Shown here one piece after another: positions 27,205-43,746 of a stretch of 64,000 bases of DNA. Source of the DNA: a plasmid; the sequence record NZ_CP015284.1; one strand, 5' to 3'. Numbering within the stretch: position 1 is the first letter of the stretch; each line of letters opens with the position of its first letter. The notes beneath the pieces were generated by a model. The model was not told the origin of the DNA. It did not search any database and saw only the letters and a program-made list of their open reading frames with translations. Both the position numbers and the translations under genes were made by a program.

Positions 27205-27885
27205 ATGGTCGAAAAAATTCGGATGTACATCGGAGTTCTTTCTTATAAAAAGGAAGGCCGAGAGGGACAAAAGGGAACAGGTTGTATTTTTAGTTATAAA
27301 GGGAAATGGTTCTTAGCAACTGCAGCACATTGCGTTTATGATATAGATGAAGATAAATTTTACACCGATTTTAAATTTACTCAGCCAAATAGTGGAAAGG
27401 AATATATACTTGGTGATGTTTACTTACATAAATTTTGGTCGAGTTTATATGCCCCAGAGTATGATATTGCTTTTTTTAATATTTATTGTGATGATAATTT
27501 TTTTAATTTGGATAGGACTTATTTAACACCTTATTTTGAAATTTCAAATGATAACAAATTTACAATTGCTGGTTTTCCTGGAAAGATACTTAGAAATAAA
27601 TTATATATAAAGAGGGATAACAACGGGATTAGCGATAGAATGTATTCGTCGAGTTTAATAGGAATAAGGACCTGTAAAAAAGAGGGAATGTCGGGAGGAC
27701 CTTTAATATGTCAAAATGAAGATAGTTTGAGTATAGTTGGTACTATTAGTTTGTCTTTTGTATCTGAAAAAGGGATTTTATGGTGTGCTCCATGGAATAA
27801 AGACTTCAAGGCTATTCTTGAGTTTCTGACAAGTGATAAACAAGCGGAGCCAGACTTTATGGAAATGTATAATTGGAAAATATAG
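27205..27885 (+). CDS. trypsin-like serine protease, candidate lanthipeptide leader peptidase
   Basis: TAAHC (His), GMSGGP (Ser) catalytic motifs. No signal peptide. Immediately upstream of LanKC (15-nt gap). Confidence 0.55.
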   Translation: MVEKIRMYIGVLSYKKEGREGQKGTGCIFSYKGKWFLATAAHCVYDIDEDKFYTDFKFTQPNSGKEYILGDVYLHKFWSSLYAPEYDIAFFNIYCDDNFFNLDRTYLTPYFEISNDNKFTIAGFPGKILRNKLYIKRDNNGISDRMYSSSLIGIRTCKKEGMSGGPLICQNEDSLSIVGTISLSFVSEKGILWCAPWNKDFKAILEFLTSDKQAEPDFMEMYNWKI

Positions 27886-27900
27886 AAATGGAGGATAACA

Positions 27901-30465
27901 ATGGATGTAAGGTATGAAATGTATTTAGCCCCCAATAATAAATTTTACAAACGAGCAGGAGCAACCAACAAAAAGAAAACTATGCTTTATGTAAAAGATT
28001 TACCAGAGGGATGGTATTCAAAAATTGGTAAGGAGAAGCACTGGCATTATTGTGGTCCAATTGGTGTTCCTATCCCACCACAAGGTTGGAAGATTCACAT
28101 CAGTTCTACATTAGACAATGCTCAAAAAACACTTGATATCGTATCAAAAATACTAATCTCTAGAAACACTCATTTTAAATTTGTAATGAGTTCATGGGAT
28201 TTATTTGTGAAAAATTCAAAATATGGTGATAGAAGCGCTTCGGGAAAATTTATTACAATTTATCCGGCGACGATTTATTTGTTTTTTACTTTACTTGATG
28301 AATTGGATAAAGCACTTTCTGGATTAGAAAATGGGGCTTATATATTAAATGATAATCGTTGGTTCTTTGGAAATGTATACTTTAGATACGGTGGTTTCTT
28401 AGAAATGCATACTCAAGAGGGAGAAGATGGTATAATTAATGAGTACGGAGAAATTATACCAGATCAACGAATTCCTGGATATGTTGTTCCTTCTTTTGTG
28501 GAAATACCTGAGAAATTAAAAGCGATGGAGTTGGAAAAAGAAAATAAGTCTTTAGATGCTAGTAAATTAGATGATTATAATATATCTGAAGCAATGCATT
28601 TTAGTAATGGAGGTGGAGTTTATAAAGCAACTAACGTATCTTCTGGAGAAAATGTAATAATAAAGGAGGGAAGGCCGGAGGCAGGTCTGGACAGTACAGG
28701 AAAAGATGGTTTTAAAAGGCTATCAATTGAATTTGAAACATTGTCTAAATTGGCAGATGTTGATGAAGTTGTTGATGTTTATGAATATTTTAAAGCGTGG
28801 GAAAATGTTTATTTAGTTGAAGAAGTGGTAAATGGGATTCCTCTCCAATCTTGGATTGCTCAAAATTATCCATTTGGTGGATCAGAGGATAAAAAGAAAA
28901 GCTATCTTCGTAAGACGTTGGATATTACAGAAAAAATAAAAACTGGTTTACAAAAGATACACGATAAAGATGTTGGAATAGGTGATTTATCACCATCTAA
29001 TATTTTAATTAACAATGATACACTCGAAATCAAGTTTATAGATTTCGAAACTGCGGGAGTTGCTGATGCTAAATATTCACCAAGTTTAGCCACTCCGGGT
29101 TTTGTTTCAAAGTATTCTAAAACAAGGAAACAATCTGATTGGTTTAGTTTTTATAGGATTGTATATTCTATGTTAGCACCAATTGCTCCAATTCAAGATA
29201 TCGAAATTAAAAATGAACAAAAAATAGATAAGTGGATTTTAATGACATTTGGTAGCGAGGCATATAATTACGTTAATAACTTAAAAAAACTTCTTCCTCT
29301 ATCTAAGCGTATGTATTACTCAGATGTTCAAGAAAACAGATTGGATTATGATTTAGATAATTTAACTTCAAAAGTTCGTCTAGGAATAATATCTCATTTA
29401 CAACCTAGTAAGAAGCAATTGATTCCGGGAGACATAAGGCAATTTGAATACTCAGGTGGTATGTATAATGTTTTAACTGGTGGTTTTGGGGTAATAATGT
29501 CACTTGTTAGAACTGGGGAAATTTCACAATCTATTAAAGAATGGGCAATTAGATATTCAAAGGAAAAGTATTTGGCGGAGTTAGATTCGGGACTATTTTC
29601 TGGAAAATCAGGAATTGCTTGTATATTATTTGAATTAGGAGAAATCCAACGCTCTAAGGAAATAATTGGCTCAATTACTATTCCAAATGAAGCTTCAGAT
29701 ATTTCTCTAATGACAGGTCTATCTGGGATAGGACTTGCACTTTTATCATTTTATACTTCATTAAATGAACATTCATATTTAGAAAAGGCTACCAAAGCTG
29801 CTAATGAGATAAAAAATATCTTTAGTAAAAATACTGAAATCTATTCAAAAGATCCAGATTTTTTTCCTAAAGGTCTATTTGATGGATGGAGTGGAGCTGT
29901 GATGTTTTTCGGTGCATTATATACAGTCACAAAAAATAAAGAGTGGCTTGATTTTGCAGAGAAAATGATGAGTAGAGAATTAGAAAGTTGTGTTTTAGAT
30001 GATGATGGAATTCTTCATATTGAAGATGAGCAAAGACTACTTCCCTATTTAGCGGGAGGAGGAGTGGGTGTAGCAGTCGCTCTACTTTCTCTTGCTAAGA
30101 AAACAAATAAAGAATTTTACTTTAAAAAATTTGAACAGACTCTTCCATTAGCCTCAACTGTTTGTTGTTATAATAGTGGTCTATTTAGAGGATATGCTGG
30201 TTTTTTACTTTTTGTTTCCTTTTTAGAACAAGAGTATGGTATAATAAATAGAGAGAAAACGCTGACATTACTGAGTACAATTCAATTGTATGCAGTAACA
30301 ACGACAGGGCAGGAAGTAATGTTTCCTGGAGACTATGGCTACAGATTGTCAGGTGATTTATTTTCTGGTTCTTCAGGTGTACTTATTGCTCTAGAAGCAA
30401 TGAGAGGGAAGAGTTGGAAAAACTGGATTCCATTGATTTCTGAAACGATGGATGTGTTATTGTGA
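27901..30465 (+). CDS. class III lanthipeptide synthetase LanKC (lyase - Ser/Thr kinase - LanC-like cyclase lacking Cys/His zinc ligands)
   Basis: Central kinase motifs (VGIGDLSPSNILIN, IDFETAG). C-terminal LanC-like Gly-rich repeats (SGKSGIACILFELG, GLSGIGLALLSF, GWSGAVMFFGALY, GGGVGVAVALL, SGSSGVLIAL). No CHG zinc-ligand motif. Confidence 0.7.
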   Translation: MDVRYEMYLAPNNKFYKRAGATNKKKTMLYVKDLPEGWYSKIGKEKHWHYCGPIGVPIPPQGWKIHISSTLDNAQKTLDIVSKILISRNTHFKFVMSSWDLFVKNSKYGDRSASGKFITIYPATIYLFFTLLDELDKALSGLENGAYILNDNRWFFGNVYFRYGGFLEMHTQEGEDGIINEYGEIIPDQRIPGYVVPSFVEIPEKLKAMELEKENKSLDASKLDDYNISEAMHFSNGGGVYKATNVSSGENVIIKEGRPEAGLDSTGKDGFKRLSIEFETLSKLADVDEVVDVYEYFKAWENVYLVEEVVNGIPLQSWIAQNYPFGGSEDKKKSYLRKTLDITEKIKTGLQKIHDKDVGIGDLSPSNILINNDTLEIKFIDFETAGVADAKYSPSLATPGFVSKYSKTRKQSDWFSFYRIVYSMLAPIAPIQDIEIKNEQKIDKWILMTFGSEAYNYVNNLKKLLPLSKRMYYSDVQENRLDYDLDNLTSKVRLGIISHLQPSKKQLIPGDIRQFEYSGGMYNVLTGGFGVIMSLVRTGEISQSIKEWAIRYSKEKYLAELDSGLFSGKSGIACILFELGEIQRSKEIIGSITIPNEASDISLMTGLSGIGLALLSFYTSLNEHSYLEKATKAANEIKNIFSKNTEIYSKDPDFFPKGLFDGWSGAVMFFGALYTVTKNKEWLDFAEKMMSRELESCVLDDDGILHIEDEQRLLPYLAGGGVGVAVALLSLAKKTNKEFYFKKFEQTLPLASTVCCYNSGLFRGYAGFLLFVSFLEQEYGIINREKTLTLLSTIQLYAVTTTGQEVMFPGDYGYRLSGDLFSGSSGVLIALEAMRGKSWKNWIPLISETMDVLL

Positions 30466-30499: not shown

Positions 30500-31557
30500 T
30501 CCCAATTTGTAAAATTAAGCTAGACAGAAAAAGCCATCTATGTTAGGCTCAGATAAACACCACATTTGTCTGAAAGGAACTAACATAAATGACCTATACT
30601 CATCTTATCACAAACGAGCTTGTAATGATAGAGGCTTACTATCAAGAAGACATAAAAGTTTCAGATATTGTGACTTCACTTGGCAGATCAAAACAGACAA
30701 TCTACAATGTCATCAACTATCTGAAAGAGGGGCACTCTGCTTATGATTACTATAACCGATATAAAATCAATAAGAAACGCTGTGGCAGGAATAAAACCAG
30801 TCTTACGCAATCAGAAAAAGATTTTATCCAAACTCATTTAGAACAAAATTGGAGCCTTGATGTCATTAAAGGAACTTATCCAGATAGGGTTGCTTGTTCT
30901 ATGAGAACTCTCTATCGACTAGCAGACCATGGTATTCTAAAGAAAGAGGATCTCCCTTGGAAAGGCAAAAGAAAACCAAATGGTCATAGCGAAAAACGAG
31001 GAAAACAAGCGTTGCGCAGAGATTTAAGTGAGAGAGCAGACAGTCATCCTAATTTTAAGACGGGATTCGGTCATCTAGAAGGGGATACAATTGTGGGAGA
31101 AAAACACAAAAGTGCAGTCATTACCTTAGTAGAATGCTTCTCAAAAGCCATCATCACACTGAAAATCAATGGATGGAAAGCAAGTGATATTGAGGCCTCC
31201 ATCAATCAATGGTTGTCTCAAGTTCCCAGTCATCTCTTTAAGTCGATAACTTTTGATTGTGGGAAAGAATTTTCTAATTGGAAATCTATTTCGAATGCAC
31301 ATGACATTGATATTTTCTTTGCGGATCCAGGATGTCCTGGTCAAAGAGGTCTCAATGAACATTCTAATGGCTTATTAAGACGAAATGGATTACCGAAACA
31401 GATGGTTTTTACTAATATTTCTCAAAAATATTTATCAGCTATAGCTGATAAAAGAAATAGAATTTCTAGGAAATCATTGAATTATCAATCACCATACCAA
31501 GTTTTTCTGAGTTACTTGAAAAGTCTAACTTAATTTAACAATTTAGGAATATAGGGT
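30500..31557 (+). mobile_element. IS30-family insertion sequence between LanKC and the precursor genes
   Basis: Full-length transposase. Right boundary placed where homology to the duplicated precursor cassette (40497 onward) begins. Confidence 0.55.
30589..31533 (+). CDS. IS30-family transposase
   Basis: 314 aa, N-terminal HTH, DDE region (GHLEGDTIVG...FADPGCPGQRGLNEHSNGLLR). Confidence 0.8.
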   Translation: MTYTHLITNELVMIEAYYQEDIKVSDIVTSLGRSKQTIYNVINYLKEGHSAYDYYNRYKINKKRCGRNKTSLTQSEKDFIQTHLEQNWSLDVIKGTYPDRVACSMRTLYRLADHGILKKEDLPWKGKRKPNGHSEKRGKQALRRDLSERADSHPNFKTGFGHLEGDTIVGEKHKSAVITLVECFSKAIITLKINGWKASDIEASINQWLSQVPSHLFKSITFDCGKEFSNWKSISNAHDIDIFFADPGCPGQRGLNEHSNGLLRRNGLPKQMVFTNISQKYLSAIADKRNRISRKSLNYQSPYQVFLSYLKSLT

Positions 31558-31634
31558 ATTATTAAGTGAAATCAATTTTTTTACAATAGATTCATACAGA
31601 GTCACTTATTCTTAAATAATGAAGGAGAACAGAA

Positions 31635-31754
31635 ATGAAAAATATCTTATCTTTACAACAACTTAAAGTAAAAGAAAATACTAAATTGATGGCTAAATCA
31701 TCAAAAAGCATAAACTGTAAAAATAGTAGCCATGCTAGCTGGTTTGTTTGCTAG
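31635..31754 (+). CDS. class III lanthipeptide precursor A1 (39 aa)
   Basis: MKNILSLQQLKVKENTKLMAKSSKSINCKNSSHASWFVC. GGAG RBS. Leader ILSLQ (ILxLQ-like). Two S-xx-S-xx(x)-C motifs (SSKSINC, SSHASWFVC). Confidence 0.6.
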   Translation: MKNILSLQQLKVKENTKLMAKSSKSINCKNSSHASWFVC

Positions 31755-31810
31755 TCTCTAAAATTAAAATTACTTTTCATTTTTTATCTTAGTTTTATAG
31801 GAGGAATCAA

Positions 31811-31924
31811 ATGAAGAAAATACTATCTTTACAGCAATTAAAAAAAACAGAAAGAGCTAAAACGAAATCTAGTATGAGTTTGAACTGTCAAATGAGTAGT
31901 AATAATAGCTGGTTTTTCTGCTAA
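31811..31924 (+). CDS. class III lanthipeptide precursor A2 (37 aa)
   Basis: MKKILSLQQLKKTERAKTKSSMSLNCQMSSNNSWFFC. AGGAGG RBS. Motifs SSMSLNC and SSNNSWFFC. Confidence 0.6.
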   Translation: MKKILSLQQLKKTERAKTKSSMSLNCQMSSNNSWFFC

Positions 31925-32008
31925 AAAAGTATTTTAAATGTTTACCTAATAATACCCTAACTAGCCTTGAAAGTTTTTCAAGGCTAGTTGCATAGTGAGA
32001 GTAATGAT

Positions 32009-33730
32009 ATGAAAAAAAATAATTATTTAGATATAGCTTATTTAAAAAAGTATCTACCAAATAATTTTTATCTTTTCTTTTTGAGCTTACTAATACTAAC
32101 TGGTACGATTGTCTCTTTAAGTATTCCAATTTTTATTATGGGAATAATTAATAATATGAAAAATGGGATTCATATCAGTAGTATATTAGTTGTTATTTCA
32201 CTTTTCCTTATAGAATTATGCTTCACAGCAGTTTCGTATTATTTCATTAATAAAACATCGGAAAGGATTGTAGAGCAGATACGTAACGAAATATGGATGC
32301 ACATTTTAAAGTTGCCAGTCTCATATTTTGATAAAAATCGTTATGGGGCGGTTGTAACAAATATTATTCATGATACTGAAGAAATATTAGAATTTTTCAA
32401 CAGTCAAATAAGCTCTTTTTTTACAAATGTTATATCTATAATTGGCTCTATTGTAATTTTGTTCGTATTGGATTGGAAGTTAGCAATTTTATTAGGTGTG
32501 GCTGTTCCTATAGCTGTTCTGCTTACTAGTTATTTTGGTAATCAAGAATACACGATATCAATGAGATATAGAGAAAGTATTGCGCACTTACAGAATAATC
32601 TTACATCTACTCTTTCAAAAATTAGGTTAGTAAAATCGACGACTTCGGAAGAGACCGAGTTTCAGAAAGAGAGTGAATTATTTAATTCTTTATATAAGAC
32701 TGGTGTAGAAGAAGGAAAAATATTGGGTATTCTTTCACCAATTTCTTCTATGGTAGTTATGCTACTCTTAGTTGTAACCTTTGGTTACGGTACCTACCGG
32801 GTATCAAATGGAACCCTATCGAGTGGAGCATTAGTTGCAAGTATTGTATATTTATTTCAATTAGCTGATCCGTTTTCGCAAATTATTTCGTTTTTCACAA
32901 GCTATCAAAAATTTAGAGCCTCGGTCGTGAAGATAGGAGAATTACTTCAAGAACCGATTGAAGCTGATTTGGTTTTGGAGTTCAAACAGGCTAAATGTAC
33001 AGATAGAGATGGTTTATTATTTAAAAATATCGATTTCTCTTATACAAAAGAAGATGTCATATTTAATAACCTAGACTTTGAATTTCAATTGTACAAAACA
33101 ACGGCCATTATTGGTAGGAGTGGAGTTGGAAAAACAACAATATTTTCATTGATAGAAAGATTTTATGTACCAACTCAAGGTAGTATCTTATTCCGCAATA
33201 AAGATATTGCCAGTATTCCTTTAAAAACTTGGCGGTCTAAAATTGCTTATTTATCGCAGGATATTGATTTGTCATACGGGACACTTTTAGAAAATTTAAC
33301 TTACGGTATACACAATTATACGATGAACAAAGTAGATAACTTAGTTGAGGAATTTGGATTAAAATCATTTTTAGATAGTCTAGAAATGGGATATAATACT
33401 ATCATTGGCGAGAAGGGAGTAACAATTTCGGGTGGTCAAAAGCAGCGAATTGCCCTTATTAGGGCAATATTGAAAGATGCTGATATTTACTTACTTGATG
33501 AGCCAACCTCAGCACTTGATGCACATACAGAAAAACTTGTTCAAATCACCTTAGAAAGATATTTGAAAGGAAAGACTGTCCTAGTTATAGCACATAGATT
33601 GAAAACAATTACCTCTGCAGATGAAATTGTTATTGTAAATAATAAGAAAATTGAATATCACGGTACTCACAATGAATTATTAAATTCTTGTCACTTGTAT
33701 AATCAGTTACTGGAGGATAGTGTACTATAA
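32009..33730 (+). CDS. ABC transporter, fused permease/ATPase, lanthipeptide exporter candidate (no C39 peptidase domain)
   Basis: Six N-terminal TM segments. Walker A GRSGVGKTT, signature ISGGQKQR, Walker B IYLLDEPTSALD. Confidence 0.8.
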   Translation: MKKNNYLDIAYLKKYLPNNFYLFFLSLLILTGTIVSLSIPIFIMGIINNMKNGIHISSILVVISLFLIELCFTAVSYYFINKTSERIVEQIRNEIWMHILKLPVSYFDKNRYGAVVTNIIHDTEEILEFFNSQISSFFTNVISIIGSIVILFVLDWKLAILLGVAVPIAVLLTSYFGNQEYTISMRYRESIAHLQNNLTSTLSKIRLVKSTTSEETEFQKESELFNSLYKTGVEEGKILGILSPISSMVVMLLLVVTFGYGTYRVSNGTLSSGALVASIVYLFQLADPFSQIISFFTSYQKFRASVVKIGELLQEPIEADLVLEFKQAKCTDRDGLLFKNIDFSYTKEDVIFNNLDFEFQLYKTTAIIGRSGVGKTTIFSLIERFYVPTQGSILFRNKDIASIPLKTWRSKIAYLSQDIDLSYGTLLENLTYGIHNYTMNKVDNLVEEFGLKSFLDSLEMGYNTIIGEKGVTISGGQKQRIALIRAILKDADIYLLDEPTSALDAHTEKLVQITLERYLKGKTVLVIAHRLKTITSADEIVIVNNKKIEYHGTHNELLNSCHLYNQLLEDSVL

Positions 33731-34544: not shown

Positions 34545-36055
34545 GACACCTTATCTGGTATTTTTTGAAACAAGGTGTTACAATAATACGGCATAGACAG
34601 CCTTATCGATTTTGGGTCAAAGAGTAATCGTAAAGTTTGTTATGCGTAATGAGGTAATACATTGTTCGAATGAGACGATGTATAGAGGCAATCGTATGTG
34701 GCTTAGTTGAAGCTATTGTCGATTGTCTTTTTCGTTTCTCATAGAAATCTGCGATATGGCAGGGATTGGTATGGCTAGCTGAAGCGATATTGTGAATACA
34801 TTTGTACAGAATTTTTTTGCATAAGGATTCCCACGCTTAGTAATATGCTCTTGACCTAGGAAATCTCCCGATTCATAGTGTTTGAGATCAATACCGATAA
34901 AAGCGTTGATTTGATTAGCAGACGTAAAGCGACGAATGTCTCCTAATTCACCAATAACGCTTGTAGCCGTTGTCTCTGCGATGCCAGGAATAGAGAGAAG
35001 AATCTCATATTCAGGTAGAGGTTTAGCTAACTCTATCAACTGTTCTAAAACTTGTTCCCGACGGTTTGTCAACCTTATAAGTTCCTGTGCATTATACTTA
35101 ACCTCTTCTATTATAGGAGAGGTTTTTGAAATGGCAGAATAAGATTGCTTTGCCAGTCCAACTAACTTCTCAGCCAAGTTATCTACTCTGTTCTCTGAAA
35201 TGCGTTTAGAGGTTGACTGGCGAATAGTCTCTTTCAACTCAACTTCCGATAATTCCAGCACCCAATGCTTTGTTGGGAAGATGGACACGAGATTCCAATA
35301 CTGCTCACCTGCAGGAGTAGATAGTAGAATCCCGATTTCTGGGAAGGCGACTTGAAGAACTTTGTGCAGCCTATTCTTCGTCCTTACGATATCCTCTGTC
35401 AGATTTTGGTAGAACCGGCTAAGATCATGCAAGTTTTGATAGACTTTTTCTTGAACATAAGTTGGCTTACGGTTTAAAACGAATTGTGACGAAGCTAGTT
35501 TCTCTGCGTCAATTTTATCGGTTTTCCGGACTCGTAAGCTATCAAGTTGCTTTTTAGCTTCCAAAGGATTAAGACGTGTATAGTCATAGCTGTTTTCTTC
35601 TAGAAAAGCCTGAAGTCGGCGAGAGTAGACACCAGTAGCTTCGGAAATAATTTCGGGGTTACTCACGGTCTTTAGGTCCTTCAGTAGACGAGAAAATCCG
35701 ATAATGTCATTAGACATAGTATAACCGTGAACCCTTTCACCATTCACAAAAATAGCAACTTCTGAGCTTGCTTTACTCACATCAATTCCAAATACTGTCC
35801 GCATTATGTTTACCTCTTTGTCTTGAACGATTCCTTATTTTAGTGATTTCATTTTCAATACTCGACGTCTAGCGTCCAACATACTTTGATAAAATTCCAT
35901 CTAAAACAGGTGTCTTGCCAGTTTTTTATACGGCGTCTAGCGCCAAAAGAAGCCACGACTTAACAAGACACCTCTACTTTAACACAAAGAAAAAGTAGTG
36001 AGTACTCACTCCCGTCGGAGATTTCTTCACTACTAATCTTAGTATGTTTTTTATA
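34545..36055 (-). mobile_element. IS110-family insertion sequence, copy 2 (same orientation as copy 1)
   Basis: Homologous to 24880-26400, flanks included. Confidence 0.6.
34713..35804 (-). CDS. IS110-family transposase, C-terminally frameshifted relative to copy 1
   Basis: MRTVFGIDVSKASSEVAI.... Diverges after ...GNPYAKK because of an indel near 34800. Confidence 0.6.
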   Translation of the reverse strand: MRTVFGIDVSKASSEVAIFVNGERVHGYTMSNDIIGFSRLLKDLKTVSNPEIISEATGVYSRRLQAFLEENSYDYTRLNPLEAKKQLDSLRVRKTDKIDAEKLASSQFVLNRKPTYVQEKVYQNLHDLSRFYQNLTEDIVRTKNRLHKVLQVAFPEIGILLSTPAGEQYWNLVSIFPTKHWVLELSEVELKETIRQSTSKRISENRVDNLAEKLVGLAKQSYSAISKTSPIIEEVKYNAQELIRLTNRREQVLEQLIELAKPLPEYEILLSIPGIAETTATSVIGELGDIRRFTSANQINAFIGIDLKHYESGDFLGQEHITKRGNPYAKKFCTNVFTISLQLAIPIPAISQISMRNEKDNRQ

Positions 36056-37390
36056 TTCAGAGTGATGAAAACACGCTTCCTAAAGTTAATAAAGTTTCTA
36101 AAACCGAATCCCAGACGTTTGATGTCTTTGATAAGCTTATTGGTGCCCTCCAATTTTGCATTTGAGTAATGTGTTTCTAGTGCGTTTTTGATGTATTGTT
36201 TGTGTCTAAGAAAGGTTCTAAAGACAGTTTGAAAGTAGTGATTGACCTTACTTATATTCTCCTCTATGAGTTCAAAAAACTCATCAATTCTTTTTTCTGA
36301 AAATAAAAAAGCAAAAACTTGTAGAGGTTATAGTCATTAGCGAGCTCTTTTGAAAAGTCCAATATCTTCACGGTGACTTCATTTGACTTAAAGTTTGACA
36401 AAAGGTCTTTGAGTGAAATGAGTTACAAGATAACTTACGGCTATCCTTTTGGAAGAGTCTCCAGTGATTTTTCAAGGCTCGGTAGGGTAGTGACTTCTTA
36501 TCAAACTGATTCATAATGGCAATTCTTGTCTTCAAAAAGGCTCGACCAAGGTGTTGGATGATGTGGAAACGATCAATAATGATTTCGGCATTTGGGAAAA
36601 GTCTACGAGCTAGTGGGATATAGGCTCCTGACATATCCATTGTAATAAACTGCACTTTTTGGCGAACCTTCAATGGATACTTCAAAAAGTGGTTTCGAAT
36701 AGTGGTTTGACGGCGATTATCAAGGATGGTTATGAGTTTGTTGGTCTCATAGTTTTGTGCCACAAAAGCGAGTTCACCTTTCTTGAACCCAAACTCATCC
36801 CAAGACATAACAGCTGGGAGCTTGTCATAATGCTCCTTGAAAGTAAACTAGTCAAGCTTACGATAGACAGTGGACGTTGATACACGAAGTCTTCTGGCAA
36901 TATCTGTTAGTGACACCTTTTCAGTAAGGAGCTGTGCAACTTTTTGCCGGACTAGATTGGAGATTTGGCAGTTTTTCTCAACGATTGATGTCTTAGCTAC
37001 CGTGACTCTCCTACAACTTTTACACTGGAAACGACGCTTTTTAAGACGTAATAGTGTAGGTGTTCCAGCTTGTTCAAGGAGAGAAATTTTAGAAGGCTTT
37101 TGAAAGTCATATGTGATCAACTTTCCTTGGCAGTGAGGACATGATGGTGCAGGGGAATCCAGTTTTGCATGAATTTCGATATGAGTATCAGTTTCAAAAA
37201 CAAGAGAAATAATGATGTTAGGGTCTTTAATTCCGATTAATTCTGTGGTATTCTTAATAAGTCTCATAAGTTCTTCCTAATGATGGTTTGGTTGCTTTTC
37301 ATTATAGTTCTTATGGGACTTTTTGTCTGCATTCAAAAAGCTCTATAATCTCTACAGTGGTTTTACCCACTACAGAAATTATAGAGCCTG
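36040..37390 (-). mobile_element. ISL3-family IS, disrupted copy
   Basis: Right end ...aaagctctataatctctacagtggttttacccactacagaaattatagagcc, identical to the end of the intact copy at 52526. Confidence 0.6.
36056..37270 (-). pseudogene. ISL3-family transposase with frameshifts
   Basis: ORFs 36848..37267 and 36368..36808 plus a further out-of-frame C-terminal region 36060-36370, all homologous to the transposase at 51147..52403. Confidence 0.7.
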
Positions 37391-37509: not shown

Positions 37510-38040
37510 GTGTTTAACATGAAAAAAATATTAAAAATAACAAGTCATCTCTTGTCTCTAATGAGGTATCCTGTTTGGGGAATAAATTTCCTGTTATTTT
37601 TAGGAATAGTAGGAGTTTTATTTGGGGGACAGAGAAGTCATTGGATGTTTACATTTGACTATGGTGATTCCATTATTGATGTTCCAATAATTTTTCCATT
37701 AGTTATTCTTATATTGTTGATTATAATTTTTGTTTTTATTATCCAGTTATTAAAAATTTGGAGTAAGTTGTTATTTGGTTTCAGTAAGGGTCAATTTTTT
37801 AGTGGTGAGAATCTTAAAAAATTAAAAAGATCGATGATATTTCTAGTTTTGGTGACTGCTATTCAATTATTGATTAATCTAATATTCAACTATTTAAGTG
37901 TAGAAAATGTTAGTGAAGTATTTGATTTTTCGTTGAAAAATTACGTGGTACATACTGTATTCATATTATTTAACGCTATATTGATTATCGTATTGGAAAA
38001 AGGAAAAAATATTCAAAAAGAAAATGAGGACTTTATTTAA
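37510..38040 (+). CDS. DUF2975-like multi-pass membrane protein
   Basis: Four to five TM helices. Followed by a small XRE regulator, the YozG-type pairing. Confidence 0.45.
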   Translation: MFNMKKILKITSHLLSLMRYPVWGINFLLFLGIVGVLFGGQRSHWMFTFDYGDSIIDVPIIFPLVILILLIIIFVFIIQLLKIWSKLLFGFSKGQFFSGENLKKLKRSMIFLVLVTAIQLLINLIFNYLSVENVSEVFDFSLKNYVVHTVFILFNAILIIVLEKGKNIQKENEDFI

Positions 38041-38269
38041 TGTAATGGATAAGATACAAATAAATTTAGAAAAGTTAATTAAAGAAAAGAAACTTACATC
38101 TAAAGAAGTTGCAAAAAGAATAAATATCACAGAGGCAAATCTATCAATTTTGAAAACGGGAAAAGCAAAAGGCATACGTTTCACTACACTCTTACGAATA
38201 TGTAGAGCACTTGATTGTCAACCTGGTGATATTTTAGAGTATGTTAGGAGTGAAAACCATGAAGATTAA
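38024..38269 (+). CDS. small XRE-family HTH regulator (YozG-like)
   Basis: LTSKEVAKRINITEANLSILKTGKAKGIRFTTLLRICRAL. Confidence 0.6.
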   Translation: MRTLFNVMDKIQINLEKLIKEKKLTSKEVAKRINITEANLSILKTGKAKGIRFTTLLRICRALDCQPGDILEYVRSENHED

Positions 38270-38711
38270 AAAAGTAATATTATGTATGATCTTTACTCTT
38301 GCAAGCATTATGCTAGTTTCATGTAGTATAAATGAAACAGTAAAAGATGTTACACAAGAAATAGAACAACAAATATCCAAAGATGATACAGATAATTTAG
38401 GTATAACTTATATTACGGAACAAAAAGAAGGGGAGACTCTAAAAGCATCATTTACTGATTTTGATGGGGTTATTTATGTAATTAGTACTAAAGAGAATAT
38501 TGAGTCAATAAAGAATTCAGATTTTAGTTTGGATAATAAAAATTTCGAAGATGTTAAAACTGATTCCTACGATGATTTCAATATTCGTTATAAAAATAAA
38601 ACTTATTTTTCGGTTAAAAAACTTGATATAGAGTCAAATAATATTACTTCATTAAAATTTAATTCAGATTATTCAAAGAGTATTTTATTAGTTTATAGAA
38701 CAAAAAACTAG
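38259..38711 (+). CDS. lipoprotein
   Basis: MKIKKVILCMIFTLASIMLVSC lipobox (LVSC). Confidence 0.55.
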   Translation: MKIKKVILCMIFTLASIMLVSCSINETVKDVTQEIEQQISKDDTDNLGITYITEQKEGETLKASFTDFDGVIYVISTKENIESIKNSDFSLDNKNFEDVKTDSYDDFNIRYKNKTYFSVKKLDIESNNITSLKFNSDYSKSILLVYRTKN

Positions 38712-38734
38712 TTTGTAGTCATAACTAGGGGGGT

Positions 38735-39110
38735 AGTAGTACTATGGCGAATATTTCGCTTATAGTGCTTTTGTGTACGACGTCATGTCGTACATCTGTG
38801 GTGAAATTCCCACGGTTCACTTGTTACGGGCGAAACAAATAACCCAATAGAGACTCCTAAGTTTGACGATTGTGATCTTGAGGAGAGGGGAAGTGATAGC
38901 AAAATTGTGGCTCTACAAACAAAATCAGATATAGGTAGATGAGGAAATCTAAAGTGTTCTTGCCAAAGTTTAGTTGAGCAGTCGTATGCCGAACGACATG
39001 TACGGTGGTAGTAGAGGCGCTACAAGTTGGCCTCTACTCTATTTTAGTGATTTTAGTCCGTTTTATTCCGCAGGAGAAAAAAACACTAGGTGCTAGAGGT
39101 AATTGAAAAA
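38735..39110. other. GC-rich structured non-coding segment of unknown nature (possible ncRNA or degraded ribozyme/intron remnant)
   Basis: No ORF. Several strong hairpins (gtacgacgtcatgtcgtac, gtagaggcgctacaagttggcctctac). GC well above flanks. Confidence 0.25.
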
Positions 39111-39479
39111 GTCAGTCACAGCAAATATTATTCATATAATATTTGCTGTGAAGAAAAGTACAAACATAAAATCGAATGATAGACAATTTCTGAGTTTTAT
39201 AGGAAATATATCATTCGGTTTTTACTAACTGAAATGCTAATGCTTTTACAATTTTCAGTTGACTAGGCAAGTGCTGACTGGTTTATAGCCTTTTACAAGA
39301 TGCACGATTGATGGGTGGTTGTTATTTTTTTCTGGAAGAGACAGGAAAAATCAAAATCTTACTGATTTTCTCAAATTTTAACAATAAGAAATCATATGAT
39401 ATCAATTGACATCAATGTTTTTTAATAAAAGATTTAAAGCGATTTTGTTAATTATGTTAATATAGATTTTTGCCCCAAA

Positions 39480-39890
39480 ATATCATGGCCAAATTATTAA
39501 TGGACGATATAAAGCAAGTATCGGTCATAATAATTTGAGATTTGTGTGAACGAAAAGGTGTTATCATACATGAAGCTAATGCTTGTTCAGATTATATTCG
39601 CATATTAGTCAGTATATCATCCAAATTAAGTGTTTTAGGTTTTATGGGCTACTTAAAAGGTAAAAGTTGATTGATGATTTTTGGCAAATGTGTGAATTTT
39701 AAATACAAATAAGGGAACAGAAAATTTTGGTGTAGTGGTTACTTATTATGGTCGCAATCAAAAAGTGATTGCAGAATATATACAAAATCAATTGCAAGAT
39801 GACAGGGTAGCTGACCAACTGACCTTGCTTGAGACAGTTGATCCGTTTACAAGCGAAGCAAATAAAAAAGTAGGATAGTGGTGCGCAAGG
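39480..39890 (+). pseudogene. IS200/IS605-family TnpA (Y1 HUH) remnant with frameshifts/stops
   Basis: Three frames together read SKLSVLGFMGYLKGKS, NRKFWCSGY and IAEYIQNQLQDDRVADQL, matching conserved IS200 TnpA segments (MGYLKGKSS, REFWCRGYYV, IQDYIKHQLEEDK). Confidence 0.5.
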
Positions 39891-40123
39891 AAGCTACTTT
39901 GGGTGAGGTTGTGTCCTAGGTCGGTAAGAGTGACCTTTCTCGATATCTTTAGAATCTTGTCCATTTCTCAGAAACAGTCTTGGCTAAGAGATGTTTTTTG
40001 GGGTTATTTGGGCGTAATAGAACTTTTTTCAAAAATCATACCAAGGATAACTTTATAGACATGGGGTGCCGGTGCCTTATTGAGTGGGTGACAACCACCT
40101 TATCCTTTAGTAGAATGGGCCTC

Positions 40124-40231
40124 TTAACGCTCTTTGAAATAGCTGTAGGCGCTTATACTGCCCAATGTTTTTGAAAGTCGTTCTATATGGATATCCACTC
40201 TATCTGAAAGAGTTAAGTGTTTATATTTCAT
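40124..40231 (-). pseudogene. IS30-family transposase N-terminal remnant
   Basis: MKYKHLTLSDRVDIHIERLSKT... resembles MTYTHLITNELVMIEAY / MSYSHLTITDRIKIETY of the other IS30 copies. Confidence 0.35.
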
Positions 40232-40585
40232 AGCTTCTTCTCTAGCAGAAAAGCTTCAGACTTGATACCACCACAAAACACGATTCATGTTAACTTCCGA
40301 TTTTGAAGATAATGTGGAACTTAATATGAAAAATAACTCGATGAGGTAATTTTTTATTTTACTTTCCAAATTTAAAAAAGATATGATATAATATGTAAGA
40401 AGAAAGCGCTATCACTACCCTGAAATGAGGTGAAATTACTTTCCGATATGAAAATAATATTCAATAATTACAATATTCACTAACATATTGGGTATTCGAT
40501 TTTTCTAATTTATTAAGTGAAATTAATTCTTTTACAATAGATTTATACAGAGTCACTTATTCTTAAATAATGAAGGAGAACAGAA

Positions 40586-40705
40586 ATGAAAAATATCTTA
40601 TCTTTACAACAACTTAAAGTAAAAGAAAATACTAAATTGATGGCTAAATCATCAAAAAGTATGAATTGTAAAAATAGTAGCCATGCTAGCTGGTTTGTTT
40701 GCTAG
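40586..40705 (+). CDS. class III lanthipeptide precursor A1, second copy (I26M variant)
   Basis: Part of an about 250-bp duplication of 31560-31810. MKNILSLQQLKVKENTKLMAKSSKSMNCKNSSHASWFVC. Confidence 0.55.
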   Translation: MKNILSLQQLKVKENTKLMAKSSKSMNCKNSSHASWFVC

Positions 40706-40760
40706 TCTCTAAAATTAAATTACTTTTCATTTTTTATCTTAGTTTTATAGGAGGAATCAA

Positions 40761-40898
40761 ATGAAGAAAATACTATCTTTACAAACGTTGATTTCTACTG
40801 AAAAAGCAACGTTGTGCAATGCCTCCAATCTTAGTGTGACGTGTAAAAAACAAAGTTCAATTAGCTTGTTTTTATGTGTTAAAACTACGGATAAATAG
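40761..40898 (+). CDS. class III lanthipeptide precursor A3 (45 aa, distinct core)
   Basis: MKKILSLQTLISTEKATLCNASNLSVTCKKQSSISLFLCVKTTDK. Same RBS and leader start as A2. Motifs SNLSVTC and SSISLFLC. Confidence 0.45.
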   Translation: MKKILSLQTLISTEKATLCNASNLSVTCKKQSSISLFLCVKTTDK

Positions 40899-41039
40899 CT
40901 GATTGCAATAAGACTTTGATTTATTGTTTAAGGTTGATTTAAAACTTAACAACTATAAAAATTGTAAATTAATTTTTATAGTTGTTTTTTTGTATTACCT
41001 CTAACCTTCGTACTAAGCTATTGCCTTCCAAATAAGAAG

Positions 41040-41880
41040 TGATAAGTACAATAAGAGTCCTTCCATTACTTTGGAGTCTTGGAGTGGTTTATCAACATCC
41101 CTTGAGGAAGATGACTTTTTGGAAGACAAACGTCAAGTAACCCTTGTTCAACCTGGAGAAACAAGTGTTAAAGCGTTTGGTATTGATATTTCCCTATCTG
41201 AAGTGAAGGTTTTAAGAGCCTCTTTTGGAAATAGCTTACAAAGTTGTTCGATGGCTGAAAACATGGATTTGGCTGTTCTGTCTGGTATCTTGAAAGCTAG
41301 GTAAAAGTGCGTTTTTCGCTCTAGAAAGGTCGCTAAACAGCCCTTGCTTTTGCCTCTGGAAGACACCACAGTATCGCTCTCCCAGTGACCAAAGGTCTCA
41401 CGATTCCTGACCTCTTTAGGACGTTTGGCAATCGACGTACCAATCCTAAAGGTTCCACGTGTTTCTTTGGGTTGTCGAGTTTTTCCTTTACGACGAAGGA
41501 CGCTTAAATCCAGATCAATCAAACCAGCATAGAGCCAGTTATAGATAGTTTTAAAAGCTACCATTGCCTTTTGTTCAAGCTGATAGCGGCCACAAATCTG
41601 TTCCGGCGATCAGGAGGATTTTAAACCGTCCTCAATTTCCTTTTTCAACTTTGGTGTCAAACGAGACTTCCGACCTTTTTGCTTAGCCCTGTGGTCATAC
41701 TGTTCCTGTGCTAAGGCTGCGGAATAACCATTTTGGTATCGTCTTAACTCTCTTGAAATAGTAGACTTATGGACGCCAAGTTTATTTGTAATTTGGCAAG
41801 GTTTCAAACCTAATTCCAAGTAGGTTTCTATCTTTATTCGGTCGGTTATGGTAAGATGGGAGTAGCTCATAGTTTTTCCT
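41040..41880 (-). pseudogene. IS30-family transposase, frameshifted and 3'-truncated
   Basis: ORFs 41610..41870 (HTH N-term) and 41148..41564 (DDE start). Confidence 0.65.
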
Positions 41881-42264
41881 CGGGTTCTGTTTGTGTGGTT
41901 ACTTACAGTTTACACCAATGAAACGCTATGAGTTTTTTTGTTGCACTTGACTTGACAATTAGGGATTTTTCTTTAAATTCAATACGAAGTATAATAAGAA
42001 CAGTTCAAATATTTATGTAGCTATTTTAAGTGATGGAGGTAAAGAAATTAAAATCAATGAACTTGATTCAAGTGCTAAAGACGATAATTATGTTTATAAT
42101 TTCACTGGTAAAGCCGAATAGAACAGAAACTTTTTACTCTTATAATGCAAAAGAAGCCCTTAGAAGAAAAACTTCCGAGAGCTTCTTTTTTAGTCTGAGA
42201 TTAACCATAGGTTAGTCTTTTTATTGTTCATTGAGCAATAGTTATAATCGCAATAAAACCAATG

Positions 42265-42700
42265 CTACATAAATACAACCTTACCAAAGATGGTGAAGTC
42301 GTCCTTTTCAGAAAGGGTATTTGGTACCTTGCTAGAATTTAGTGAGTTTAGAAGAATGTCACCATTATCTCTATTTTGACTCACCTTCATTACGTGGTAC
42401 TGACACTTTAGCTGCACGATGCAGATATCGCCTGTTCGAAGGACGGAGTCTTTCATGACAAATATTACTTCATCATCGAAGAAACTAGGTTCCAAGGAAT
42501 CACCAACAACCTTAAACGCAATATCATGTACCGGAATAGGAACAGGATAGTCAAGGCAGTCAACTGGAACCTCTGATAGTTCAAATCCATGTGCGTTGGC
42601 TCTAGCATAAATACTGACTCTTTTGGTTGGTCGTTCATCTTGTCCAACTAGTTGTTTTCTATGGTCTTTTTCTCTGATTTCTTTAGAGATATGCTGATTA
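42265..42700 (-). pseudogene. truncated duplicate of the S24-peptidase domain of the cI-like repressor
   Basis: ...VDCLDYPVPIPVHDIAFKVVGDSLEPSFFDDEVIFVMKDS..., about 90 percent identical to the C-terminus of 45062..45856. No N-terminal HTH. Confidence 0.6.
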
Positions 42701-43640: not shown

Positions 43641-43745
43641 TTGACAGCGTTCGAGATTGTGCAAACCATTCTAGGCTTTGGTAGTTTTACTATCGCTCTA
43701 ATTGGATTATGCTACAAACTCTTTAAAGACGATGACAAAAAATAA
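43641..43745 (+). CDS. holin-like toxin peptide (type I toxin-like, 34 aa, TTG start)
   Basis: LTAFEIVQTILGFGSFTIALIGLCYKLFKDDDKK. GGAG 7 nt upstream. Followed immediately by a terminator. Confidence 0.4.
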   Translation: MTAFEIVQTILGFGSFTIALIGLCYKLFKDDDKK

Positions 43746-43746
43746 T

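What the first reader, a model, noticed from the sequence alone, without database searches (positions are those of the whole stretch)
40497..40900. Displaced second precursor cassette with a third, divergent core peptide
About 250 bp including precursor A1 is duplicated 9 kb away (one conservative substitution, I26M). Here it is followed not by A2 but by A3, a 45-aa peptide with the same leader start but a different core (CNASNLSVTCKKQSSISLFLC), still containing two S-xx-S-xx(x)-C spacings. This suggests a multi-substrate lanthipeptide system whose precursor set is being shuffled by IS-mediated rearrangement. The cassette sits beside IS30, IS200 and ISL3 debris.
Basis: seen in the sequence. 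Interest (0 to 1): 0.6.

Follow-up and report, generated by a model that had tools for sequence, protein, structure and literature searches.

The report
Conserved second lanthipeptide precursor cassette
A Streptococcus salivarius gene cluster for ring-containing peptides (class III lanthipeptides) carries a second small operon with a spare copy of one precursor gene and a conserved third precursor; this split layout is inherited and shared with other streptococci, so mobile elements did not create it, and the system is an ordinary, still untested, multi-peptide cluster.

Summary
Window 40510-40783 is a 275-bp direct copy (97.5% identical) of 31559-31833. It carries a candidate promoter, precursor A1 (one change, I26M) and the first 23 nt of the next gene. 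A 45-aa ORF, A3 (40761-40898), follows, then a strong terminator hairpin.

A3 is a genuine class III lanthipeptide precursor:
- It scores above the NCBIfam cutoff.
- It keeps all six ring-forming Ser/Cys positions.
- It has orthologues in clusters of S. vestibularis-like bacteria, S. sanguinis, S. pantholopis and S. suis. Core dN/dS is well below 0.1 where dS is estimable.
- RefSeq already names it (WP_198166470.1, S. salivarius).

IS elements did not create the split layout. IS-free S. sanguinis clusters carry the same distal A1'-A3 cassette beyond the transporter, DUF2975, HTH and lipoprotein genes, there as a perfect 587-bp inverted repeat. The two A1 copies evolve in concert by gene conversion, while A3 stays distinct and constrained.

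Three things are specific to S. salivarius: the flipped orientation, the loss of the synthetase-3' part of the repeat, and 1.8 kb of unmatched DNA with IS200 debris. In kind this is an ordinary, uncharacterised multi-precursor class III cluster. Modification of A3 by the single LanKC is inferred, not shown.

The parts
40510..40783 (+). Distal copy of the 275-bp repeat: candidate promoter, A1', the intergenic region with its RBS, and the first 23 nt of A3.
   Evidence: Direct repeat of 31559-31833, 97.5% identical, E 2.7e-133. Homology to the distal cassettes of other species starts at 40508.
40533..40538 (+). Candidate -10 box TACAAT (TATAAT in other species), 48 nt upstream of the A1' start codon. 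The proximal counterpart is at 31582-31587.
   Evidence: It is the best-conserved block in the alignment of upstream regions from proximal and distal copies of five lineages. This is a consensus match only. Transcription was not tested.
40586..40705 (+). A1', a 39-aa class III lanthipeptide precursor and second copy of A1 (I26M).
   Evidence: ORF. NF038159 53.5 bits against a cutoff of 30. RefSeq WP_198166469.1 'class III lanthipeptide [S. salivarius]'. RBS GAAGGAGAA lies 6 nt upstream.
40761..40898 (+). A3, a 45-aa class III lanthipeptide precursor with a distinct core and a 6-residue tail after the last Cys.
   Evidence: ORF. RBS AGGAGG lies 7 nt upstream. NF038159 50.2 bits against 30 and Pfam RamS 24.8 against 24.3. 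RefSeq WP_198166470.1. Orthologues and selection.
40948..40993 (+). Intrinsic-terminator-like element: a 17-bp perfect hairpin followed by U7, about 50 nt after the A3 stop codon.
   Evidence: Inverted repeat 40948-40986. The 105-nt fold gives -24.6 kcal/mol, z -4.65, with 0 of 200 shuffles as stable. The simple scan missed it because the stem is AT-rich.
31559..31833 (+). Proximal copy of the repeat.
   Evidence: An IS30 element ends at about 31547, 11 nt to the left of the repeat.
31635..31754 (+). A1 precursor (39 aa).
31811..31924 (+). A2 precursor (37 aa).
   Evidence: RefSeq WP_198166468.1.
27205..27885 (+). Trypsin-like serine protease, a candidate leader peptidase.
   Evidence: Pfam Trypsin 26.6 bits. 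It is syntenic with KC in all related clusters. The role is inferred.
27901..30465 (+). Class III lanthionine synthetase LanKC, the only one in the window.
   Evidence: RamC_N, Pkinase and LANC_like domains. NF038151 784 bits against a cutoff of 575. Nearest solved structures are 9wj0 and 8sao. No second KC or KC fragment is in the window.
30589..31533 (+). Intact IS30-family transposase inserted between KC and A1.
   Evidence: NF033563 230 bits. Collinearity with S. sanguinis breaks at window 30446/31548.
31988..33730 (+). ABC exporter (fused permease and ATPase).
34713..35804 (-). IS110-family transposase inserted after the ABC gene. It is a diverged direct copy of the element at 24926-26278.
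36368..37267 (-). Two fragments of an ISL3-family transposase.
37510..38040 (+). DUF2975 membrane protein.
   Evidence: It is conserved in all related clusters.
38024..38269 (+). HTH_26 (Cro/CI-type) regulator.
38241..38711 (+). Small predicted lipoprotein (lipobox LVSC), a candidate immunity protein.
   Evidence: Sequence. No family hit. Conserved synteny. The role is inferred.
39542..39670 (+). IS200-like (Y1_Tnp) fragment within the 1.8-kb segment (38712-40507) that has no blastn match in the S. vestibularis-like, S. sanguinis or S. pantholopis loci compared.
41148..41870 (-). Two fragments of a different IS30-family transposase downstream of A3.
   Evidence: There is no DNA similarity to the IS30 at 30589.

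Best explanation
The region 40510-40993 is the distal precursor operon of a streptococcal class III lanthipeptide gene cluster in Streptococcus salivarius. It has its own promoter region, a second copy of precursor A1 (A1'), a third precursor A3 and a terminator.

Shown:
- The cluster family ancestrally encodes its precursors in two places. One set sits directly after the single LanKC synthetase (A1-A2). The other sits at the far end, beyond the ABC exporter, the DUF2975/HTH pair and a small lipoprotein (A1'-A3).
- A3 is an old, selectively maintained member of the precursor family, with the same leader motif and the same two Ser-Ser-Cys ring motifs as A1 and A2.
- The segment upstream of A3 (promoter region, A1, and the first 23 nt of the following gene) is kept nearly identical to the proximal copy in each genome, while A3 stays different from A2.

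Inferred:
- Recurrent gene conversion is what keeps the two copies alike.
- The one LanKC recognises the shared leader (ILSLQ...L) and dehydrates and cyclises all three cores.
- The cluster's trypsin-like protease and ABC exporter then process and export the products. The result would be three distinct two-ring peptides, with A1 encoded at double dose.
- In the S. salivarius lineage a secondary rearrangement, probably involving the IS elements whose debris flanks the cassette, flipped it into direct orientation and trimmed the repeat. The cassette itself was not damaged.
For: Family membership of A3:
- NF038159 50.2 bits against 30 and Pfam RamS 24.8 against 24.3.
- All six Ser/Cys ring positions are invariant across A1, A1', A2 and A3.
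- RefSeq names it a class III lanthipeptide.

Conservation of A3:
- The exact sequence is indexed in 140 contig blocks.
- Orthologues share 74-82% identity in S. vestibularis-like loci (L012-L015, L031, L033), S. sanguinis (L016, L017) and S. pantholopis (L011). The S. suis homologue (L026-L028) shares 63%.
- 28 of 45 columns are invariant, concentrated in the core.
- For core codons 21-42, S. salivarius against L015 shows 9 synonymous and 1 non-synonymous codon differences. Core dN is 0.02-0.10 and dS is 0.95 or more, or saturated, in every pair.
- A3 stays intact where A1' has decayed. In L031 the start codon is lost and the frame shifted. In L018 and L032 only the last 8 codons of A1' remain.

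Ancestral split layout:
- The gene order protease-KC-A1-A2-ABC-DUF2975-HTH-lipoprotein, followed by A1'-A3, occurs in IS-free S. sanguinis, in L012/L015/L033 and in S. suis.

Concerted evolution:
- Differences between proximal and distal copies within a genome are 0/275 (both S. sanguinis strains) and 3-8/275 (S. salivarius). Differences between lineages are about 80/280.
- The K24R change that separates the two S. sanguinis strains is present in both copies of the strain that carries it.
- Among 10 S. salivarius strains, three coding haplotypes (CAC for Ile, TGC and TGT for Met) each occur at both loci. Three upstream sites remain copy-specific.
- The right end of the repeat lies 23 nt into A2/A3 in every lineage.

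Expression signals:
- Both genes have an RBS.
- A -10-like box is conserved in both copies.
- A terminator hairpin follows A3.

Single synthetase:
- The window holds one full-length LanKC and no other KC sequence.
Against: - No biochemical or transcript evidence exists. Modification of A3 by LanKC, leader cleavage and export are all inferred.
- A3 also survives intact in remnant loci that lack KC, A1, A2 and the ABC gene within 10 kb (L018-L025, L032). An intact ORF is therefore not proof of current function.
- In S. salivarius an IS30 separates KC from A1-A2, and IS110/ISL3 separate the ABC gene from the downstream genes. The cluster could be on its way to decay.
- The first ring motif is S-xx-S-xx-C, not the textbook S-xx-S-xxx-C, so the ring chemistry is uncertain.
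- The direction of the orientation change is inferred by parsimony, and the S. suis outgroup is also in direct orientation.
- dN/dS values come from only 22-45 codons with saturated dS.
Confidence: 0.75

Rival explanations
1. First reader's reading. The cassette is a recent IS-mediated displacement or duplication. A roughly 250-bp piece with A1 was copied 9 kb away, and the precursor set is being shuffled by insertion sequences. The ancestral position of A3 was next to KC.
For: - The cassette is flanked by an IS200 fragment (39542-39670) and IS30 fragments (41148-41870).
- The two A1 copies are 97.5% identical.
- The cassette's orientation differs from that in the closest relatives.
- The DNA downstream of A3 varies between S. 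salivarius strains.
- A KC 3' fragment precedes A1' in S. sanguinis, L035 and S. pantholopis.
Against: - The same split layout exists in a compact, IS-free S. sanguinis cluster and in four other lineages.
- In 0 of 20 or more loci is A3 adjacent to a full-length KC.
- The high identity between copies is explained by conversion. The copies co-vary within genomes and share haplotypes across strains.
- All 10 S. salivarius contigs examined carry the identical four-gene precursor set, so no shuffling of content is seen.
Confidence: 0.12
2. A3 is a decaying relic. The distal cassette is the remnant of a partial inverted duplication of KC-A1-A2, and A3 is a non-functional diverged A2 copy that merely has not yet been disrupted.
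For: - A KC 3' fragment upstream of A1' in several lineages shows that a partial duplication happened.
- A3 persists in KC-less remnant loci.
- A1' is a pseudogene in L031.
- The S. salivarius cluster is riddled with IS elements.
Against: - The core is under strong purifying selection (9 synonymous to 1 non-synonymous codon differences; dN 0.02-0.10 with saturated dS) across lineages whose KC proteins are only 77-83% identical.
- The ring-forming Ser and Cys residues, and the K29-T42 stretch apart from Q/H31, are invariant in five lineages.
- An A3-type gene is already present in the S. suis cluster, which has no KC fragment beside it.
- A3 is the gene that stays intact when its neighbour A1' decays.
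Confidence: 0.08
3. The repeated A1 segment is a recombination handle. Where the copies are inverted (S. sanguinis, 587 bp, 100% identical), homologous recombination reversibly inverts the 4-kb segment between them. That would place either A2-ABC-... or A3 behind KC-A1. Where the copies are direct (S. salivarius), recombination could delete the segment.
For: - Both complete S. sanguinis genomes have a perfect 587-bp inverted repeat.
- The right-hand boundary of the repeat is the same in all lineages.
- The geometry would swap A2 and A3 exactly.
Against: - All eight loci with convergent cassettes and a KC (L012, L014, L015, L016, L017, L031, L033, L035) are in the same orientation.
- The S. pantholopis arrangement is explained equally well by deletion of KC.
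- No deletion product was seen among 10 S. salivarius contigs.
- Gene conversion alone explains the homogenisation.
Confidence: 0.05

Closest known systems
Class III lanthipeptide precursors of Firmicutes (NCBIfam NF038159 'lanthi_III_b'; Pfam PF19402 RamS/SapB family)
   Same: A1, A1', A2 and A3 all match NF038159 full-length above the cutoff. They share the N-terminal hydrophobic leader motif and two Ser-xx-Ser-xx(x)-Cys motifs, and they are encoded with a LanKC.
   Different: - A3 has a 6-residue tail after the last Cys (VKTTDK) and a third Cys at position 19, neither found in A1 or A2.
- The first motif has two residues, not three, before the Cys.
- No product of this cluster has been described in the papers searched.
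LanKC with solved structures 8sao/8sap/8sam and 9wj0. The first three are deposited as 'Class III lanthionine synthetase LanKC'. From memory they are ThurKC of Bacillus thuringiensis, which PMC11330476 calls class III-a.
   Same: These are the best PDB matches to the window's LanKC, end to end (527-540 bits, residues 2-848). The architecture is the same: lyase, kinase and metal-independent cyclase-like domains.
   Different: - The genus differs.
- The precursor sets were not compared here.
- That these entries are ThurKC rests on recollection, not on a tool result.
PneKC/PneA cluster of Streptococcus pneumoniae (class III-b; PMC11330476)
   Same: It is a streptococcal class III system with one synthetase. 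[quoted passage not shown] That parallels A1 and A1' here. [quoted passage not shown]
   Different: - PneKC is much more distant from this KC (255 bits, mainly the N-terminal half).
- Its cluster uses an S9 peptidase and a heterodimeric ABC transporter, according to the paper.
- No distinct third core is described there.
Labyrinthopeptin-type clusters (LabKC with LabA1 and LabA2). This comparison is from general knowledge.
   Same: One class III synthetase serves more than one distinct precursor, each with two SxxSxx(x)C motifs.
   Different: - It is actinobacterial.
- Its precursors are adjacent in one operon.
- It has no duplicated precursor copy and no split layout.
Multi-precursor lanthipeptide clusters in general (Walker et al. 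2020, PMC7268733)
   Same: That survey reports that 57% of class III precursors are the sole precursor in their cluster, so multi-precursor class III clusters are common. [quoted passage not shown]
   Different: Here the extra cassette has a conserved position at the far end of the cluster, and it carries a copy of the first precursor that is homogenised by gene conversion.
Salivaricin 10 of S. salivarius (PMC10235938)
   Same: It comes from the same species and also has several related lanthipeptide precursors (srnA1-A4).
   Different: It is a class II (LanM) system on a megaplasmid. It is not related to this locus. The cluster here has no match in PLSDB plasmids apart from its IS elements.

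Membership tests
Class III lanthipeptide precursor (LanA; NF038159 / PF19402) | Sequence-model score above the curated cutoff | tested here: met
   For A3, NF038159 scores 50.2 bits against a cutoff of 30, covering profile positions 1-38 of 38. Pfam RamS scores 24.8 against 24.3, which is borderline.
Class III lanthipeptide precursor (LanA; NF038159 / PF19402) | N-terminal leader with the hydrophobic theta-xx-theta-xx-theta / ILxLQ recognition motif | tested here: met
   A3 residues 4-10 are ILSLQTL. M1, K2, I4, L5, S6, L7, Q8 and L10 are invariant across A1, A1', A2 and A3. The motif definition is taken from PMC11330476.
Class III lanthipeptide precursor (LanA; NF038159 / PF19402) | Core with Ser-xx-Ser-xx(x)-Cys motif(s) | tested here: met
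   A3 has S22/S25/C28 and S32/S35/C39. These columns are invariant and in the five A3 orthologues.
Class III lanthipeptide precursor (LanA; NF038159 / PF19402) | Encoded in a cluster with a LanKC synthetase | tested here: met
   LanKC lies at 27901-30465 (NF038151 784 bits against 575), 10.3 kb upstream. The same linkage is seen in L012, L015-L017, L028, L031 and L033. It is not met in the remnant loci L018-L025 and L032.
Class III lanthipeptide precursor (LanA; NF038159 / PF19402) | Dehydration of Ser/Thr and formation of lanthionine or labionin rings by the synthetase | not testable with these tools
   This needs co-expression or an in-vitro reaction followed by mass spectrometry.
Paralogues under concerted evolution (gene conversion) | Copies within a genome are more alike than orthologous copies between genomes | tested here: met
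   Within genomes there are 0-8 differences per 275 nt in S. sanguinis and S. salivarius. Between lineages there are about 80 per 280. L012 and L015 are intermediate (43-44).
Paralogues under concerted evolution (gene conversion) | The same polymorphic haplotypes are found at both loci across strains | tested here: met
   The three haplotypes of codons 25-27 each occur in proximal and distal copies among 10 S. salivarius strains. Three upstream sites stay copy-specific. The K24R change is in both copies of S. sanguinis SK115R.
   The IS-free S. sanguinis cluster has the same distal position. No locus has A3 beside a full-length KC.
Invertible DNA segment | Both orientations occur in natural populations | tested here: not met
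   All eight convergent loci that retain a KC are in one orientation. The sample is small, and assemblies collapse minority states.
Two-component (synergistic) lantibiotic | Two distinct peptides are both required for activity | not testable with these tools
   Only the genetic precondition, several distinct cores, is seen. There is a single synthetase, unlike the classical two-LanM systems.

The most novel reading that the evidence does not exclude
The conserved repeat (promoter region, A1 and the first eight codons of the next precursor) may be more than a passive duplicate. It could be a maintained recombination handle. Where it is inverted, as in the perfect 587-bp repeat of S. sanguinis, it would allow reversible inversion of the exporter/immunity block. 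That would put A2 or A3 in turn behind KC-A1. Elsewhere it would allow cassette-style exchange or loss of precursor genes. This would be a phase-variation-like mechanism for changing which lanthipeptides a strain makes.
Probability: 0.06. Interest if true: 0.65.

Novelty: new member of a known kind. Interest (0 to 1): 0.35.

Why it matters
- The work defines the full precursor set (three distinct cores, four genes) of an uncharacterised class III lanthipeptide cluster. The cluster is found in common human oral and gut streptococci (S. salivarius, S. vestibularis-like, S. sanguinis) and in S. suis.
- Genome-mining tools that look only near the synthetase would miss A1'-A3. Gene callers already miss A2: it was not called in any of the ten contigs.
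- The most constrained peptide, A3, lies 4-10 kb from the enzyme, which matters for anyone trying to express or assay the products.
- The locus gives a clean small-scale example of concerted evolution inside a biosynthetic cluster. One precursor copy is homogenised while its neighbour is held distinct.
- None of this changes how class III lanthipeptides are understood.

Tried and rejected
1. I recalled salivaricin 10 as a class III S. salivarius system. The paper shows it is class II (SrnM) on a megaplasmid, so it is unrelated.
2. I first read S. pantholopis (KC fragment-A1'-A3, convergent with lipoprotein...A2-A1) as the product of an inversion between the A1 copies. The standard layout with KC and the protease deleted explains it equally well, so it is not evidence for inversion.
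3. Inversion switch: none of the eight informative loci is flipped.
4. I looked for a relic of KC or of an inverted cassette in the 1.8 kb upstream of A1' (38712-40507) and elsewhere in the window. There is none.
5. A 39-40-aa gene called upstream in some contigs (window 38974-39096) is not a precursor.
6. Rfam found nothing in or next to the cassette. The nearest hits are Srn266 copies at IS ends and a RatA/rli28 pair at 43.5 kb.
7. The simple terminator scan found nothing after A3. Folding shows an AT-rich 17-bp hairpin with a U-tract.
8. Plasmid origin: only the IS elements match PLSDB plasmids.
9. Literature searches for the peptide sequences and for class III lanthipeptides of these species found no description of this cluster.
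Full report
**What is at the coordinates**

The window carries a class III lanthipeptide gene cluster of Streptococcus salivarius. The species assignment rests on exact-sequence look-ups: the LanKC, A1', A2 and A3 proteins are RefSeq entries named for S. salivarius. A Streptococcus sRNA family also hits nearby.

The gene order on the plus strand is as follows.

| Coordinates | Feature |
|---|---|
| 27205-27885 | trypsin-like protease |
| 27901-30465 | LanKC (RamC_N, Pkinase, LANC_like; NF038151 784 bits against a cutoff of 575) |
| 30589-31533 | intact IS30 transposase |
| 31635-31754 | precursor A1 |
| 31811-31924 | precursor A2 |
| 31988-33730 | ABC exporter |
| 34713-35804 (minus) | IS110 transposase |
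| 36368-37267 (minus) | two ISL3 fragments |
| 37510-38040 | DUF2975 membrane protein |
| 38024-38269 | HTH_26 regulator |
| 38241-38711 | small protein with a lipobox |
| 38712-40507 | 1.8 kb with no blastn match in the related loci compared, holding an IS200-like fragment |
| 40586-40705 | precursor A1' |
| 40761-40898 | precursor A3 |
| 41148-41870 (minus) | IS30 fragments |

**Checking the observation**

- The segments 31559-31833 and 40510-40783 form a 275-bp direct repeat, 97.5% identical (E 2.7e-133).
- A1 and A1' differ only by I26M.
- The repeat stops 23 nt into the next gene. A3 therefore shares MKKILSLQ with A2 and then diverges at the DNA level.
- In a four-way protein alignment the six residues that would form rings are invariant: S22, S25, C28, S32, S35 and C39.
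- A3 scores 50.2 bits on the NCBIfam class III lanthipeptide model (cutoff 30) and just passes Pfam RamS. Both A1' and A3 have good ribosome-binding sites.
- About 50 nt after the A3 stop there is a 17-bp perfect hairpin followed by seven U. The fold gives -24.6 kcal/mol with z -4.65.
- Nothing competing lies on the other strand, only ORFs of 23-31 aa.

**Is A3 real?**

It fails.
- The exact A3 sequence is indexed in 140 blocks of the contig collection. All ten places inspected have the same neighbourhood.
- Orthologues turned up in four other settings: contigs matching an uncultured Streptococcus MAG whose A1 protein RefSeq also lists for S. vestibularis (L012-L015, L031, L033; 80-82% identity), two complete S. 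sanguinis genomes (L016, L017; 73%), S. pantholopis (L011; 74%) and S. suis (L026-L028; 63%).
- Across the five closest lineages, 28 of 45 positions are invariant. Nearly all of the core is among them: A21-N23, S25, C28-K30 and S32-T42.
- At the codon level the core shows 7-10 synonymous against 1-4 non-synonymous codon differences per pair. Core dN is 0.02-0.10 and dS is about 1 or saturated. The sample is small (22 codons), but every pair points the same way.
- A3 is also the gene that stays intact when its neighbour decays. In L031, A1' has lost its start codon and reading frame. In L018 and L032 only the last eight codons of A1' remain. In both cases A3 and its RBS are untouched.

A3 is therefore a selectively maintained coding gene of the precursor family. 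It is not an ORF created by a breakpoint.

**Is the cassette displaced by IS elements?**

It is not. In S. sanguinis the cluster is compact, with no room for an IS (collinear blastn). The order is protease, KC, A1, A2, ABC, DUF2975, HTH and lipoprotein. On the opposite strand and convergent with these come A3, A1' and a 254-bp fragment of the KC 3' end.

The KC-3'/A1/A2-start segment and its distal copy form a 587-bp inverted repeat that is 100% identical in both strains. Other lineages show variants of the same convergent layout.

| Lineage | Distal cassette |
|---|---|
| S. vestibularis-like loci (L012, L015, L033) | convergent; 281-bp repeat at 86-87%, plus a 65-bp KC relic |
| L035 | convergent; 598-bp repeat at 95% |
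| S. pantholopis | convergent; 201 bp at 100%; KC and the protease are deleted and only a 58-aa KC tail remains upstream of A1' |
| S. suis | direct orientation; sits after an extra YknX/MacB-type transporter; first gene is a diverged 40-aa paralogue, not an A1 copy; an A3-type gene follows |

A two-gene distal precursor cassette ending in an A3-type gene is therefore an old feature of this cluster family. No locus has A3 next to a full-length KC.

**What keeps A1' so similar to A1?**

If the duplication is old, the two copies in one genome should be at least as different as orthologues between species. They are far more alike.
- Within genomes there are 0 differences per 275 nt in S. sanguinis and 3-8 in S. 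salivarius. Between lineages there are about 80 per 280.
- The single K24R change that distinguishes the two S. sanguinis strains is present in both copies of the strain that has it.
- Among ten S. salivarius strains, three haplotypes of codons 25-27 (AGC-ATA-AAC for Ile; AGT-ATG-AAC and AGT-ATG-AAT for Met) each occur at both loci. They occur in matched (I/I, M/M) and mixed (I/M) combinations. Three sites in the upstream region remain fixed differences between the proximal and distal copies.

This is the signature of recurrent gene conversion with short tracts. The right-hand boundary of the homogenised segment is the same in all lineages: 23 nt into A2/A3, where A2 and A3 become too different to pair.

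**What is specific to S. salivarius?**

Homology to the distal cassettes of other species runs only from 40508 to the A3 stop at 40898. Compared with its closest relatives, three things differ.
- The cassette is in direct instead of convergent orientation.
- The KC-3' part of the repeat is gone.
- The 1.8 kb of unmatched DNA with an IS200 fragment separates it from the lipoprotein gene, and a degraded IS30 lies on the other side.

The DNA downstream of A3 also differs between S. salivarius strains. An IS-associated inversion of a module of about 0.4 kb is the simplest reading. The mechanism cannot be reconstructed, and because S. suis is also direct the polarity rests on parsimony.

The proximal copy has an IS30 inserted 11 nt to the left of the repeat. 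The best-conserved upstream block contains a -10-like TACAAT (TATAAT in other species) about 48 nt before the start codon. It lies inside the repeat in both copies. Both cassettes can therefore plausibly be transcribed on their own. This is a consensus match, not evidence of transcription.

**How it most likely works**

The shown facts are these: one LanKC, four precursor genes with three distinct cores, a shared leader motif, shared ring motifs, and conservation with constraint on A3.

The rest is inferred from what is established for class III systems (for example PMC11330476 for leader recognition and the SxxSxxxC motifs).
- The single LanKC binds the common leader helix (ILSLQxL), then phosphorylates, eliminates and cyclises the two Ser-Ser-Cys motifs in each of A1, A2 and A3.
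- The trypsin-like protease removes the leaders and the ABC protein exports the products.
- The lipoprotein, DUF2975 and HTH genes, plus the MacB-type pump in S. suis, would provide immunity and regulation.
- A1 is encoded twice and A2 and A3 once each.

Whether the peptides act together is unknown.

**Comparison with what is known**

- The synthetase is closest to the solved class III LanKC structures 9wj0 and 8sao/8sap/8sam (527-540 bits, end to end). It is much further from the S. pneumoniae PneKC (255 bits).
- Multi-precursor class III clusters are common. In one survey, 57% of class III precursors are the sole precursor in their cluster (PMC7268733).
- The PneKC paper notes a second PneA gene, differing by one residue, encoded away from the main operon.
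- Salivaricin 10 of S. salivarius, which I first suspected, is a class II megaplasmid system and is unrelated. This cluster has no plasmid match beyond its IS elements.
- I found no paper describing this cluster or its peptides.
- RefSeq already labels all four genes 'class III lanthipeptide'.

**Verdict**

The claim of a multi-substrate system is supported at the genomic level. The claim of IS-driven displacement is not supported.

The locus is a new, uncharacterised member of a known kind. It has one mildly notable evolutionary feature: concerted evolution of one precursor copy next to a constrained, distinct third precursor.

The idea that the repeat acts as an inversion or exchange handle is not excluded, but it has no support here. 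Eight of eight informative loci are in one orientation.

Noticed in passing
window 25000-26375 and 34677-36050: Two diverged direct copies (80-93% identical) of an IS110-family element bracket the protease-KC-IS30-A1-A2-ABC part of the cluster, in a composite-transposon-like arrangement. NCBIfam labels the family 'RNA-guided transposase'.
   Followed up: partly
L016 and L017, 12306-12892 versus 17335-16749: In two complete S. sanguinis genomes the inverted repeat is 587 bp and 100% identical. It includes the last 254 bp of the LanKC coding sequence.
   Followed up: partly
L018-L025 and L032 (A3 at 10001-10138 in L018): These remnant loci keep only an intact A3 plus the convergent lipoprotein, HTH_26 and DUF2975 genes next to housekeeping genes (jag, yidC, rnpA). 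KC, A1, A2 and the ABC gene are absent within 10 kb, and A1' is reduced to its last 8 codons. Why A3 stays intact there is unexplained.
   Followed up: partly
L031 9796-10000: A1' is a pseudogene here (start codon lost, frameshift at the 3' end), while A3, KC, A1 and A2 are intact.
   Followed up: yes
L026 and L027, 11348-15973: In S. suis the A3-type gene is followed by three consecutive large serine recombinase genes. This suggests the cluster sits at the edge of an integrative element. The S. suis cluster also has an extra YknX/ABC/MacB-FtsX transporter before the distal cassette.
   Followed up: no
window 40761-40898 (A3 residues 15-19): The basic residue at position 17, found in the four closest A3 orthologue lineages (K or R, before F18), is Thr in S. 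salivarius, which has Lys at position 15 instead. Cys19 is Ser in S. pantholopis and His in S. suis. If the trypsin-like protease cuts after this basic residue, the mature N-terminus would differ by two residues. This is untested.
   Followed up: no
window 37279-37388 and 44825-44940: Two copies of the Rfam 'Streptococcus RNA 266' family (91.6 bits, and 48 bits below the gathering score of 63), overlapping a 66-nt repeat. The first abuts the ISL3 fragment, so the family may be an IS end and not a free-standing sRNA.
   Followed up: no
window 43527-43866: Adjacent hits to rli28 (plus strand, 55 bits) and RatA antitoxin RNA (minus strand, 51.7 bits), both above their gathering scores. This could be a type I toxin-antitoxin locus.
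   Followed up: no
window 42251-42550 and 45048-45347: A 300-bp direct repeat (89% identical) duplicates the C-terminal part of the HTH_3/Peptidase_S24 repressor-like gene at 45062-45856. The copy at 42265-42495 is a 76-aa fragment.
   Followed up: no
The scan of one representative genome per species found the cluster only in a Streptococcus MAG and in S. sanguinis, not in the S. salivarius representative. The cluster is therefore strain-variable in S. salivarius. In addition, the gene caller behind the contig collection did not call A2 in any of the ten S. salivarius contigs.
   Followed up: partly
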